Source: the human T2T-CHM13v2.0 reference genome, Homo sapiens. From it: 64,000 bases of DNA. The stretch lies in the NCBI RefSeq assembly GCF_009914755.1, contig NC_060928.1. One strand, 5' to 3'. The stretch's first letter is position 1, and each line of letters starts with the position of its first letter. The notes under the pieces are model-generated. The model worked only from the letters and a program-made list of their open reading frames with translations, searched no databases and was not told the DNA's origin. This document shows, piece by piece, positions 34,577-36,672 of this stretch. The translations under genes were made by a program, and so were the position numbers.

Positions 34577-35123
34577 TGATGGTTGACCAAGAGTGCCTTA
34601 ACTCTGATTGACCAAACTTTAGACAGGCTTCTTCTTTTCTCTAAAATCTCAACATCCCTTCCCTTAGATCATTTACTTTAGAAAACTTTTATTGAAAATT
34701 ATTTATCTGCCTTTTTGAGATGTTAATCTTTTGTGAAAGACTTGTCAGTTTTACATCCCAGTACAGTCTATTCCAAGGGCTTGGAAGTCATTCTTTTGAA
34801 AGGTAAGCATAAAGGAAGATAGTATCCCTATCTCTCAGTATTTATTGGAGGGTAGAAGTCTAATTTAGGTGGCATTCTTTAAAAAAGTTATAAAACTACC
34901 ACCTGTCATGAAAATAAGAGGAAGTTTACTTTTCTTTGGATAAGGGTAATTAGCAACACAGATGGCCTCTGATCCTCCCAACTCCAGCTCTTAAAATCTC
35001 TGTAGCTATTTGTTTTGAAGGAACTTAGTTCAGACTCTGTTGTTTCTTCTTCCTTATTGCAATAGCCTTGAATGAAGGTTTCCTTACCTTTTAATTTTAC
35101 CTACTGTAATTTGCACTTTGACA
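34577..35123 (+). mobile_element. ERV1 solo LTR (MER34/MER39-like)
   Basis: TG...CA ends; 'ttgaccaaactttagacaggct', 'ttattgcaatagccttgaat', ends 'ctttgaca'. Confidence 0.5.
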
Positions 35124-35186
35124 GCCTTTACATGTATTCTAGCTTATTTCTTTTCTGCTATCCTCCACATTTTCTCCATGGTTAGA

Positions 35187-36060
35187 TGTAGGGAGACCCC
35201 CTGAAACTATGGCTACAGAATAAAAGATGAAATGCTCCTGATTATTGTAAGTACAAAACTGCATGCAGGATAGTGTAAAGACAATGCCAGGTTGGACTGC
35301 CAGAATGAGCCAACAGTCCGTGATGTGATTTCCCCTGCAGAGAACCTATGAAGGGATGTGCAGTGGGAGGTTTCACATCACCAAGATTCCTATCCCAGAA
35401 AAGCAGATGTTCATAGCTCTGGGAATGGAATGCGACCCTTGTGAAGAGCCTATAAATGGACGCATGGGGGACACCTGTCCATACGGATAAGATAGGGCTA
35501 TAAACACCCTCATCTTGCCACAGGGCTCTTCTAGGCCTCTTTAGGGTTAAGGCATACTCCCTTCTGAGAATTTCTGGTCTAACCGGTTGTCTAGCTTCAC
35601 ATCCTGTTTCTATGGATTGTTTGTAACCAGCTTTTGCTGCAACTGTTACTGCTGATTAATATCTTGCTAATCATAGGTTATGGAAAGATTGTGTTTCTGT
35701 TTTAAGGCTCTGTTAGAAATTACTGACACACACACTACATTGTAAATTCTTATCTCTGTATACTATACTTCCACATACAAATATTATGTTAAAGAATTAC
35801 TTCATCCCCATGTGACCATGTCACCTCATAATCAAATGACCCTAAATCCCTCACTAACCTACCCCCGCCCTCACTAAACTTAATAATAAATGCTGGTATA
35901 TCCAGTGCATTGGCAGCATTGCGGGACCAGAAGGCGGTGACCCCCCTGGACCCAGCTTTCACTATCTTGTGTGTGTCTATTATTTCTTAACCTGCTGATC
36001 TGTCTGGGAACAAAGAGAGAGCCCCGTTGCATTGCGGGCTGCTGGCCAGATCCCACAATA
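35187..36060 (+). mobile_element. ERVK (class II) LTR, ~874 bp; best recalled match MER11D/HML-7
   Basis: Starts TGTAGGGAGACCCCCTGAAAC; AATAAA near 35885; immediately followed by a Lys-type PBS; 6-bp TSD. Confidence 0.82.
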
Positions 36061-36062
36061 TC

Positions 36063-36074
36063 TGGTGCCCAACG
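36063..36074 (+). other. Truncated retroviral primer-binding site (tRNA-Lys type)
   Basis: TGGTGCCCAACG, 2 nt after the LTR end, versus the Lys1,2 PBS TGGCGCCCAACG. Confidence 0.8.
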
Positions 36075-36460
36075 AAATTCTCAGAAGGGAGTATGCCTTA
36101 ACCCTAAAGAGGCCCAGAAGAGCCGTGGCAAGATGAGGGTGTTTATAGCCCTATCTTATCCATATGGACAGGCGCCCCCATGCGTCTGTTTATAGGGTCT
36201 CCACAAGGGTCGCATTCCATTCCCAGAGCTATGAACATCTGCTTTTCTGGGATAGGAATCTTGGTGATGTGAAACCTCCCTGACTGCACGTCCCTTCATA
36301 GACTCTCTGCAGGGGGAAGCACATCATGCACTGTTGGCTCATTCTGGCAGTCCAACCTGGCATTGTCTTTATAAAATCCTGCATGCAATTTTGTATTTAC
36401 AATAATCAGGAGCATTTTATCTTTTATTCCATAGCAATAGTTTCAGGGGGTCTCCCTACA
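36074..36460 (-). mobile_element. Inverted copy of the first ~388 bp (U3) of the same ERVK LTR
   Basis: Reverse complement of 35187-35574 (~93% by eye); ends ...tctccctaca followed by gttaga. Confidence 0.95.
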
Positions 36461-36625
36461 GTTAGACGCATCCTAGTACTCATCTTCAGCTTGGATTTTA
36501 CTTCCTTAAGGATATTCTCTGACTATCTCACTAAAGAAGACTATCCCAATTAGTACCTATCTCATTACCTGGGTTTCTTTCTCTAGTTATATAAAGACAT
36601 ACTGCTAGTTTGTTATGCAGTTAAG

Positions 36626-36626
<1 letters not shown>

Positions 36627-36672
<46 letters not shown>
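36627..36672. repeat. (TG)23 microsatellite
   Basis: Seen directly. Confidence 0.97.

What the first reader, a model, noticed from the sequence alone, without database searches (positions are those of the whole stretch)
35181..36466. ERVK 'U3-to-U3' integrant: LTR + PBS folded back into an inverted U3, flanked by a single 6-bp TSD
Seen: GTTAGA | TGTAGGGAGA...full LTR (35187-36060) - TC - PBS TGGTGCCCAACG - inverted LTR nt ~388 to 1 ...TCTCCCTACA | GTTAGA. The 1,274-bp unit has ~388-bp terminal inverted repeats, TG...CA ends and a perfect 6-bp direct repeat. Established: plus-strand strong-stop DNA is U3-R-U5-PBS, betaretrovirus-like integrases make 6-bp TSDs, and a solo LTR formed by recombination does not retain a PBS. 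Inference: strong-stop DNA mis-primed on U3 instead of making the second strand transfer (1-nt G overlap at 36074), giving a mini-DNA with two U3 attachment ends that integrase inserted. Arm divergence of ~7%, including reciprocal CpG decay, fits both arms being as old as the insertion. It would be a fossil aberrant reverse-transcription product that mimics a TIR transposon.
Basis: partly seen in the sequence, partly recalled or inferred. Interest (0 to 1): 0.78.

Follow-up and report, generated by a model that had tools for sequence, protein, structure and literature searches.

The report
Retroviral LTR folded back, integrated once
A 1.27-kb fossil of an ancient HERV-K(HML7) retrovirus consists of one LTR, 12 bases of its tRNA primer site and an inverted copy of the LTR's first 388 bases, and looks like a botched reverse-transcription product that the viral integrase still inserted into the genome.

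Summary
GTTAGA | 874-bp LTR | TC | 12 nt of a tRNA-Lys primer-binding site (PBS) | inverted LTR nt 388-1 | GTTAGA. The LTR is MER11D of HERV-K(HML7). A 2021 survey lists this locus only as a plain solitary LTR.

Both outer ends are U3 nt 1, and the 6-bp duplication matches the family norm. So one integrase event inserted a DNA with two U3 ends.

New here: of 24 ERVK LTR-PBS junctions examined, 4 leave the normal sequence at PBS nt 9-12, and two of those are further mini-integrants with their own 6-bp duplications. PBS nt 11/12 is the acceptor-stem/T-stem boundary of tRNA-Lys(CTT). This points to plus-strand strong-stop DNA that stopped early on the tRNA and then primed elsewhere.

The arms differ by 6.2%, within the 1.8-8.0% range of true HML7 LTR pairs.

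Weak points:
- The tree does not recover the arms as sisters, though it does not reject that either.
- No empty site could be examined.
- End joining of two viral DNA pieces before integration is not excluded.

No other such unit was found in partial genome scans, and no description was found in nine literature searches.

The parts
35181..35186 (.). Left copy of the 6-bp target-site duplication, GTTAGA.
   Evidence: It is identical to 36461-36466. Family copies show 6-bp duplications (18 of 29 perfect).
35187..36060 (+). Complete 874-bp MER11D LTR of HERV-K(HML7), U3-R-U5. It starts TGTAGGGAGACC and ends GATCCCACAATA.
   Evidence: Most of the 40 genomic copies scored match query 1-874 at 91-94% identity. 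The locus-level BLAST gave 1-874 for 24 of 29 copies. The locus is listed as an HML7 solitary LTR, hg38 chr4:160364606-160365479 (+), in Suppl. S1 of PMC8156875.
35187..35574 (+). Left arm of the inverted repeat, LTR nt 1-388 (within U3).
36061..36062 (+). TC dinucleotide between U5 and the PBS, as in normal proviruses of the family.
   Evidence: The same TC is present in 9 of the 10 other HML7 5' LTR junctions; L043 reads TT.
36063..36074 (+). First 12 nt of the tRNA-Lys(CTT) primer-binding site, TGGTGCCCAACG. The G at 36074 could equally belong to the inverted arm.
   Evidence: The normal family junction continues ...CCCAACGTGGCC TTCTTTGTTCC. The tRNA-Lys(ctt) 3' end was read from L083: PBS nt 1-11 copy CCA, the discriminator and the acceptor strand, and nt 12 is the first T-stem base.
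36074..36460 (-). Right arm: LTR nt 388 to 1 in inverted orientation, ending in ...TCTCCCTACA (U3 nt 1) at the outer edge.
   Evidence: 92.8% identity over 390 columns. Homology stops exactly at nt 388.
36461..36466 (.). Right copy of the 6-bp target-site duplication, GTTAGA.

Best explanation
This is a single germ-line integration of an aberrant reverse-transcription product of a HERV-K(HML7) virus.

**Proposed steps**
1. Plus-strand strong-stop DNA (U3-R-U5-TC-PBS) began copying the tRNA-Lys(CTT) primer.
2. It stopped after 11-12 nt, having copied CCA, the discriminator and the acceptor-stem strand, at the foot of the T stem.
3. Its free 3' end did not pair with the PBS complement on minus-strand DNA. 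With 0-1 nt of overlap it was extended on a plus-sense U3 strand, entering at nt 388 and running off at that strand's 5' end (U3 nt 1).
4. The partner was most simply a second nascent plus strand whose own 3' end lay at nt 388. That strand was extended in turn on the strong-stop DNA. Mutual extension gives a blunt duplex of about 1.28 kb with a U3 attachment site at both ends.
5. Integrase processed both ends and inserted them in concert with the family's usual 6-bp stagger.

**Shown:** the structure, the two U3 termini, the 6-bp duplication, the truncated PBS, the recurrence of breaks at PBS nt 9-12, and the tRNA position of that break.

**Inferred:** that the break is a polymerase stop, that reverse transcriptase made the joint, and the identity of the partner strand.
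For: 1. Both outer ends are U3 nt 1 (TGTAGG... / ...CCTACA), flanked by a perfect direct GTTAGA. The inverted copy does not run on into inverted flank, as a genomic fold-back duplication would.
2. The family integrates with 6-bp duplications: 18 of 29 copies are perfect, and 5 of the other 11 are 3' LTRs abutting a polypurine tract. The mismatched-locus control gave 4 of 812.
3. The inner junction is U5-TC-PBS nt 1-12. PBS bases next to U5 are what a plus strand copying the tRNA makes. A partial minus-strand copy of the RNA PBS would keep the far end instead (inference from the standard scheme; PMC6088434 passages).
4. Breaks recur at the same place. Of the 30 loci returned by the U5-end+PBS pattern, 24 are real ERVK LTR-PBS junctions. 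Twenty continue normally and 4 break at PBS nt 9-12:
   - this locus
   - L042, C3:55283060-55284001: GTTCAT|LTR|TC|PBS 11 nt|LTR nt 815-874|GTTCAT
   - L047, C5:164860545-164861649, another ERVK family: GCCATG|LTR|TC|PBS 12 nt|16-nt tail ending GATA|GCCATG
   - L044, the 4q25 provirus: PBS nt 9-11 joined to an internal position
5. PBS nt 11/12 is the acceptor/T-stem boundary of tRNA-Lys(ctt) (ARAGORN, sequence).
6. Arm divergence is 6.2% (3.9% outside CpG columns). That lies within the 1.8-8.0% of six true HML7 5'/3' LTR pairs over the same columns, as expected if the arms were alike at insertion.
7. All 12 non-CpG differences between the arms are states that are rare elsewhere, held by 0-4 of the 40 other rows, on one arm or the other.
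8. Precedents: premature and deferred second-strand transfers give defective HIV-1 proviruses (PMC12657518 passages). HIV-1 RT can prime from 2-nt 3' overlaps (PMC3035444, start of abstract in the listing).
Against: - The arms are not recovered as sisters in the ML tree, whereas 4 of 6 true LTR pairs are.
- With CpG columns masked the arms sit in one unresolved 15-leaf group, and no rare non-CpG state is shared by both.
- The rare states they do share (T131, G167, A320) did not appear among the non-CpG columns, so they appear to lie in CpG-affected columns.
- Sisterhood is therefore not shown, only not rejected (p-AU 0.31 and 0.37).
- The overlap at the joint is only 0-1 nt, less than the 2 nt of the published clamp activity.
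- The break of L044 lies at nt 9-11 rather than 11-12.
- The search pattern required PBS nt 1-11, so breaks earlier in the PBS could not be seen.
- No modified base is known to me at tRNA position 65-66 (recalled), so the stop is ascribed to structure only.
- No empty site or orthologue was examined.
- The unit is unique in the scans made.
Confidence: 0.72

Rival explanations
1. Host end joining before integration. Two incomplete viral DNAs were ligated head to head by non-homologous or microhomology-mediated end joining: one ending at the strong-stop end (U5-TC-PBS nt 12), the other broken at U3 nt 388. Integrase then inserted the chimera through its two U3 ends.
For: A joint with 0-1 nt overlap is as typical of end joining as of polymerase switching. 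The strong-stop intermediate has a natural DNA end at the PBS, so the recurrence at PBS nt 11-12 does not exclude it. The outer structure (two U3 ends, 6-bp duplication) is explained equally well.
Against: It needs two separate viral DNA molecules, each with a finished duplex U3 end, and a re-formed integrase complex on the chimera. A natural strong-stop end would more often carry 18 nt of PBS, yet three independent elements stop at nt 11-12. The second break at U3 nt 388 has no evident cause. These points are inference; no test here separates the two routes.
Confidence: 0.13
2. Strict self-priming. One strong-stop strand folded back on its own U3, copied itself into a hairpin with a 388-bp stem and a loop of about 500 nt, and that hairpin was integrated.
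For: It needs only one molecule. [quoted passage not shown] The product has the observed sequence order.
Against: A hairpin has a single duplex terminus. A clean 6-bp direct duplication is the mark of concerted joining of two ends, so a second-strand synthesis step with no obvious primer would be needed, or single-end joining followed by unusually precise host repair. This is inference from the integration mechanism and was not tested here.
Confidence: 0.08
3. Not a single event. Either two independent HML7 insertions in opposite orientation were followed by a deletion, or a normal provirus was rearranged after insertion (inversion plus deletion), with the matching hexamers arising by chance.
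For: The ML tree does not join the arms and puts the right arm with L009/L029 at 87/91, unstarred. The arms are no closer to each other (6.2%) than random pairs of family copies (median 6.2%).
Against: - The outer flanks would have to match by chance (1 in 4096; control 4 of 812).
- A post-insertional inversion would need breakpoints exactly at both edges of an LTR that has no terminal inverted repeat (its ends are TGTAGG... and ...GCAATA).
- The inverted copy stops exactly at U3 nt 1 instead of continuing into inverted flank.
- The apparent separation in the tree rests on CpG columns. With these masked the arms fall in one unresolved group, and every remaining difference is a state held by at most 4 of the 40 other rows.
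- The inner break coincides with the PBS nt 11-12 breaks of other elements.
Confidence: 0.05

Closest known systems
Premature and deferred (aberrant) second-strand transfer in HIV-1 defective proviruses (PMC12657518; passages read)
   Same: In both, plus-strand strong-stop DNA fails to make the normal PBS-to-PBS transfer and its 3' end is extended elsewhere, and the faulty product is still integrated. One junction lies at or next to the PBS. The HML7 4q25 provirus (L044/L061) is a direct counterpart.
   Different: In those proviruses the acceptor is minus-strand DNA further along, in direct orientation, which gives a deletion provirus with one U3 end and one U5 end. Here the acceptor is plus-sense U3. 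The product is inverted, has no internal genes and carries two U3 ends. The term 'inver' occurs 0 times in that paper.
[quoted passage not shown]
   Same: A strong-stop DNA 3' end primes on a strand of the same sense instead of transferring, which gives a fold-back product.
   Different: That reaction involves the minus strand and is driven by a hairpin. It is described as a dead end and was not detected in endogenous reactions with particles. Here the plus strand is involved, there is almost no complementarity, and the product was integrated and inherited.
Solitary LTR formed by LTR-LTR recombination (how PMC8156875 Suppl. S1 files this locus)
   Same: One complete MER11D LTR flanked by a 6-bp duplication, with no viral genes.
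   Different: A recombinational solo LTR retains neither TC plus PBS nor an inverted U3. The duplication here flanks the 1,274-bp unit, not the 874-bp LTR.
L1 twin priming (5'-inverted L1 insertions; PMC2837659, start of abstract seen in the listing)
   Same: An inverted and truncated retroelement copy flanked by one target-site duplication, produced when a second 3' end primes during reverse transcription.
   Different: Twin priming is target-primed reverse transcription on chromosomal nicks by a non-LTR element. Here the product was made before integration and inserted by a retroviral integrase.
Copy-back / snap-back defective genomes of RNA viruses (PMC6140465, start of abstract seen in the listing)
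   Same: The polymerase leaves its template and copies back along a strand of the same sense, which creates complementary termini.
   Different: Those are RNA replicons made by RNA polymerases and are not integrated.
TIR DNA transposons
   Same: Terminal inverted repeats (388 bp), TG...CA tips and a short target-site duplication.
   Different: The arms are LTR U3 sequence and there is no transposase. No second copy with this architecture was seen in three scans: 0 of the 29 other LTR loci, 0 of the 10 other HML7 PBS junctions, and no other head-out pair among the 100 of 206 termini listed.

Membership tests
HERV-K(HML7) / MER11D LTR | LTR sequence belongs to the MER11D family. | tested here: met
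   91-94% identity to the 40 genomic copies scored. Proviruses that carry this LTR match the HML7 locus table of PMC8156875 (4q25, 5q22.3, 6q22.31, 11p12, 11q14.3). This locus is itself listed as an HML7 solitary LTR. The 874-bp length equals the 897-bp reference minus the recurrent 23-bp deletion described there.
HERV-K(HML7) / MER11D LTR | tRNA-Lys primer-binding site 2 nt after the LTR. | tested here: met
   TC plus TGGTGCCCAACG matches nt 1-12 of the family PBS and the 3' end of tRNA-Lys(ctt). Only 12 of 18 nt are present.
HERV-K(HML7) / MER11D LTR | 6-bp target-site duplication. | tested here: met
   GTTAGA on both sides. 18 of 29 family copies have a perfect 6/6 match.
Solitary LTR by recombination | A single LTR directly flanked by the duplication, with no other viral sequence. 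| tested here: not met
   TC, 12 nt of PBS and 387 nt of inverted U3 lie between the LTR and the right-hand GTTAGA.
Autointegration product | The inner junction joins an LTR terminus to an internal viral target, with duplication of viral target bases. | tested here: not met
   The inner junction joins PBS nt 12 to U3 nt 388. Neither is an LTR terminus, and no viral bases are duplicated there. That such products are circular is recalled knowledge.
Aberrant plus-strand (second-strand) transfer product | [quoted passage not shown] | tested here: met
   The break lies after PBS nt 11-12. It recurs in 4 of 24 ERVK junctions.
Aberrant plus-strand (second-strand) transfer product | Acceptor is minus-strand DNA, giving a direct-orientation deletion provirus (as described in PMC12657518). 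| tested here: not met
   The acceptor sequence is inverted U3, meaning a plus-sense template. The unit works like this class but is a different outcome.
TIR DNA transposon | A family of copies sharing the TIR architecture, and/or a transposase. | tested here: not met
   It is unique in the scans made. The arms are LTR sequence.

The most novel reading that the evidence does not exclude
ERVK-type retroviruses primed by tRNA-Lys(CTT) had a discrete weak point in vivo. Plus-strand strong-stop synthesis often stalled after copying the acceptor-stem strand of the primer (PBS nt 11-12). The stalled 3' end then paired with whatever other nascent 3' end was in the core:
- another plus strand, giving this U3-to-U3 unit
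- a young minus-strand strong-stop DNA, giving LTR-PBS-U5-tail mini-integrants such as L042 and L047
- the growing minus strand, giving deletion proviruses such as 4q25

The genome would then hold a small, so far unrecognised class of 'strong-stop mini-integrants' that are at present filed as solo LTRs. This locus would be natural proof that a retroviral integrase carries out concerted integration of two U3 ends in the germ line.
Probability: 0.45. Interest if true: 0.65.

Novelty: new variant of a known kind. Interest (0 to 1): 0.55.

Why it matters
Errors of reverse transcription are usually studied in cell culture or in HIV-1 reservoirs. Here a tens-of-millions-of-years-old product is preserved with both junctions intact. 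It shows three things:
- A DNA with two U3 ends can be integrated in concert in vivo.
- Elements annotated as solo LTRs can be something else, which matters for estimates of recombinational deletion and for dating.
- ERVK families using tRNA-Lys(CTT) share a breakpoint at the acceptor/T-stem boundary of the primer. That gives a concrete, testable pause site for plus-strand strong-stop synthesis.

The unit is also a natural 388-bp inverted repeat with a 499-bp spacer that has stayed stable in a primate genome. No effect on host genes is expected, since none is annotated within 100 kb.

Tried and rejected
Trees on LTR nt 1-388 with 29, then 40, other rows. The family is star-like, the arms are not sisters, and the AU test does not reject sisterhood (p 0.316, 0.314, 0.373). 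The result is inconclusive. It counts mildly against, because 4 of 6 true LTR pairs did cluster.
2. **Substitute empty site from paralogs.** The left flank (34787 to about 35124) belongs to an old repeat with copies about 70% identical, but all 11 paralogs examined stop 21-88 nt before the insertion point. The right flank has no paralog. No empty-site test was possible, and no primate genomes are held.
3. **L047 as a second LTR-PBS-inverted-LTR unit.** Rejected: the inverted match downstream is an Alu. L047 proved to be a different kind of mini-integrant.
4. **Autointegration.** Rejected: the inner junction is not at an LTR terminus.
5. **Genomic fold-back duplication.** Rejected: the inverted copy ends exactly at U3 nt 1 and is followed by a direct repeat of the flank, not an inverted one.
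6. **Genome-wide listing of LTR 5' termini.** It showed only 100 of 206 matches, all exact, on C1 to C19. The other 106 were not seen, so uniqueness is not established.
7. **Literature.** Nine answered searches found no description of an integrated LTR-PBS-inverted-U3 unit. One search was swamped by unrelated uses of 'snap-back'. Subscription journals and the older retrovirology literature are largely outside the library, so an earlier description cannot be excluded.
8. **ORFs on the 11p12 provirus.** Listed only. Not needed once the family was named from the paper.
Full report
**1. What is there**

Reading the window gives, on the + strand:
- GTTAGA (35181-35186)
- an LTR from TGTAGGGAGACC (35187) to GATCCCACAATA (36060)
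- TC (36061-36062)
- TGGTGCCCAACG (36063-36074)
- the reverse complement of 35187-35574 (36074-36460), ending TCTCCCTACA
- GTTAGA again (36461-36466)

The repeat finder reports the inverted repeat as four collinear blocks, 91-96% complementary. A global alignment shows that homology ends exactly at LTR nt 388. The unit is 1,274 bp, with arms of 388 and 387 nt and 499 nt between them.

**2. Family**

The host genome could be searched. Of 236 first-look candidates, 40 were scored. All are full or nearly full copies at 91-94% identity, and most match query positions 1-874, so the LTR boundary is right.

Solo copies carry 6-bp duplications: 18 of 29 are perfect, and 5 of the other 11 are 3' LTRs abutting a polypurine tract. 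Pairing flanks from different loci gave 4 identical hexamers of 812.

Proviruses with this LTR lie at the positions tabulated for HERV-K(HML7) (MER11D-HERVK11D-MER11D) in PMC8156875 (passages). The reference LTR there is 897 bp with a recurrent 23-bp deletion, which gives 874.

That paper's Supplementary S1 lists our locus only as a solitary LTR, hg38 chr4:160364606-160365479 (+), 874 bp. Its text contains none of 'inverted', 'hairpin', 'primer binding', 'target site' or 'strong-stop'. The published annotation therefore misses the PBS and the inverted arm.

**3. One event or several**

Both outer tips are U3 nt 1, and the flanks repeat directly. This excludes three alternatives:
- A genomic fold-back duplication would carry on into inverted flank.
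- An inversion of a 3' LTR would need breakpoints exactly at both LTR edges. This LTR has no terminal inverted repeat (TGTAGG... and ...GCAATA).
- Two independent insertions would need a chance hexamer match.

Autointegration is also excluded, because the inner junction (PBS nt 12 to U3 nt 388) is not at an LTR tip.

The only simple reading is concerted integration of a linear DNA with two U3 ends.

**4.

On nt 1-388 with 29 other copies the tree is star-like and the arms are not sisters. Holding them together costs 7.7 log-likelihood units, p-AU 0.316.

As a control I added six true 5'/3' LTR pairs:
- Four pairs cluster (11p12, 6q22.31, 5q22.3, 11q14.3).
- Two do not (4q25, 6p12.3).
- The arms do not (p-AU 0.314).

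So the test has some power, and this result counts mildly against sisterhood.

With the 79 CpG-affected columns masked:
- The arms fall in one unresolved 15-leaf group (p-AU 0.373).
- All 12 remaining substitutions are states held by 0-4 of the 40 other rows, 8 on the left arm and 4 on the right.
- No rare non-CpG state is shared by both arms.

The earlier separation thus rested on recurrent CpG changes. The data neither show nor reject sisterhood.

Distances agree with that:

| Comparison | All columns | Non-CpG columns |
|---|---|---|
| The two arms | 6.2% | 3.9% |
| Six true LTR pairs | 1.8-8.0% | 1.3-6.1% |
| Random pairs of copies (median) | 6.2% | 3.9% |

The family expanded so fast that age-matched sisters and non-sisters look alike. 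The arm divergence does fit arms as old as the insertion and shows no later homogenisation.

**5. New evidence on mechanism**

I scanned the genome for the family's U5 end plus PBS nt 1-11. It gave 350 matches at up to 2 mismatches, against 104 for the reversed control. The 30 best became loci, and 35 matches had at most 1 mismatch.

Twenty-four of the 30 are real ERVK LTR-PBS junctions, and 11 of those are HML7. Twenty continue with the normal PBS and leader. Four do not:
- **Ours.**
- **L042** (C3:55283060-55284001, − strand): GTTCAT | LTR | TC | PBS nt 1-11 | LTR nt 815-874 in direct orientation | GTTCAT.
- **L047** (C5:164860545-164861649, − strand; a different ERVK family): GCCATG | LTR | TC | PBS nt 1-12 | 16 nt ending GATA like that family's U5 end | GCCATG.
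- **L044**, the published 4q25 provirus: PBS nt 9-11 is joined directly to an internal position about 2.7 kb further along the 11p12 copy used as a ruler.

The overlap at the joints is 0-1 nt.

The pattern demanded PBS nt 1-11, so earlier breaks could not be seen. Nothing constrained later ones, yet they all fall within 3-4 nt.

I then read a tRNA-Lys(ctt) gene (ARAGORN, sequence). Its 3' end reads T stem CCCAC, acceptor strand GTTGGGC, discriminator G. So PBS nt 1-11 copy CCA, the discriminator and the whole acceptor strand, and nt 12 is the first T-stem base. The recurrent break sits at that boundary.

**6. Model**

I propose that strong-stop synthesis halted at the foot of the T stem. This is inferred; no modified base is known to me at that position (recalled). 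The 11-12-nt PBS copy transferred poorly, and the free 3' end was extended on another strand.

In our element that strand was plus-sense U3, entered at nt 388 and copied to its 5' end. This explains why the arm stops exactly at U3 nt 1.

A duplex with two ends follows most simply if the partner was a second nascent plus strand ending at nt 388 that was extended in turn. The same scheme covers the other cases:
- Partner is a short minus-strand strong-stop DNA: gives L042 and L047.
- Partner is the growing minus strand: gives L044.

Precedents:
- HIV-1 RT primes from 2-nt 3' overlaps (PMC3035444, start of abstract in the listing).
- Premature and deferred second-strand transfers shape defective HIV-1 proviruses (PMC12657518 passages).
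- A two-genome template switch of strong-stop DNA has been proposed for asymmetric LTRs (PMC9278108 passages).

What the sequence cannot decide is whether the joint was made by reverse transcriptase or by host end joining. A strictly intramolecular hairpin fits a concerted 6-bp duplication less well.

**7. Is it unique, and is it known**

No other inverted LTR piece was found:
- none lies within 1.5 kb of the 29 other LTR loci
- none of the 10 other HML7 PBS junctions, nor of the 19 other loci, has an inverted repeat bracketing the PBS
- among the 100 of 206 LTR 5' termini listed, only this locus forms a head-out pair within 2 kb

The other 106 termini were not seen.

Nine answered literature searches found no description of such an integrant. 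The library lacks most subscription and older retrovirology papers, so an earlier report cannot be ruled out.

**8. Verdict**

The feature is real and was mis-annotated as a solo LTR. It is best explained as a fossil of an aberrant plus-strand transfer product that integrase inserted through two U3 ends. It is a new variant of a known kind of error, of moderate interest. Its value rises if the PBS nt 11-12 breakpoint class holds up in a full survey.

Not done: orthologue and empty-site comparison, a complete genome scan, and any biochemical test.

Noticed in passing
L042/L062 = G000:C3:55283060-55284001 (− strand): An HML7 mini-integrant: GTTCAT | full MER11D LTR | TC | PBS nt 1-11 | last ~57-60 nt of the LTR (nt 815-874) in direct orientation | GTTCAT. 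It would look like a solo LTR in annotation but keeps a PBS and a U5 tail inside one 6-bp duplication.
   Followed up: partly
L047/L078 = G000:C5:164860545-164861649 (− strand): In a different ERVK-type family (LTR starts TGTTGCAGG and ends CCCCCGATA; family not named here): GCCATG | LTR | TC | PBS nt 1-12 | 16-nt tail AAATCAGGGTCTGATA | GCCATG. The tail resembles a shortened U5 end, but that is not proven. The LTR start rests on where BLAST homology to related LTRs begins.
   Followed up: partly
L044/L061 = G000:C4:113157000-113162500 (published HML7 locus 4q25): In this provirus the 5' LTR-TC-PBS nt 1-9/11 is joined directly to an internal position (about 4266 on the 11p12 copy used as ruler), in direct orientation. 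That fits a mis-targeted plus-strand transfer.
   Followed up: partly
LTR 3' ends of L002-L030 and window 36055-36060: The MER11D LTR ends in ...GCAATA (TA) next to the duplication in 27 of 29 copies, not in the near-universal CA. The two exceptions have truncated alignments. The U3 tip is the canonical ...CCTACA. The second ERVK family seen (L047, L048, L054, L058) likewise ends in ...GATA.
   Followed up: no
L006 = G000:C14:64744979-64746053; also G000:C10:52430811-52430901 beside C10:52429920-52430792: Tandem partial duplications of the LTR start: nt 1-205 (C14) or nt 1-91 (C10) sit directly upstream of a full LTR in the same orientation. They could be nested insertions or other replication errors.
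   Followed up: no
G000:C18:14959413 and 14960850; G000:C19:45882281 and 45882885; five − strand termini in C19:45.53-45.99 Mb: Same-orientation LTR 5' termini lie only 1,437 and 604 bp apart, and a run of − strand copies on C19 suggests a duplicated block.
   Followed up: no
L002/L064 = G000:C4:163606501-163607376 (108 kb upstream of the element, outside the window): The best-matching copy (94%) is a 3' proviral fragment (about 440 bp of internal sequence, the PPT and the 3' LTR). It is evidently the '4q32.1 (−)' HML7 locus of PMC8156875. It alone shares the rare G at LTR nt 167 with both arms.
   Followed up: partly
window 34787-35124: An old interspersed repeat (copies about 70% identical across the genome) ends 21-88 nt before the insertion point.
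   Followed up: partly
window 36627-36672: A (TG)n microsatellite lies 160 bp downstream of the element.
   Followed up: no
window 35523-35765: NCBI's soft-mask covers only 243 bp of the 1,274-bp unit, so the mask gives no hint of the LTR or of the inverted arm (hub note compared).
   Followed up: no
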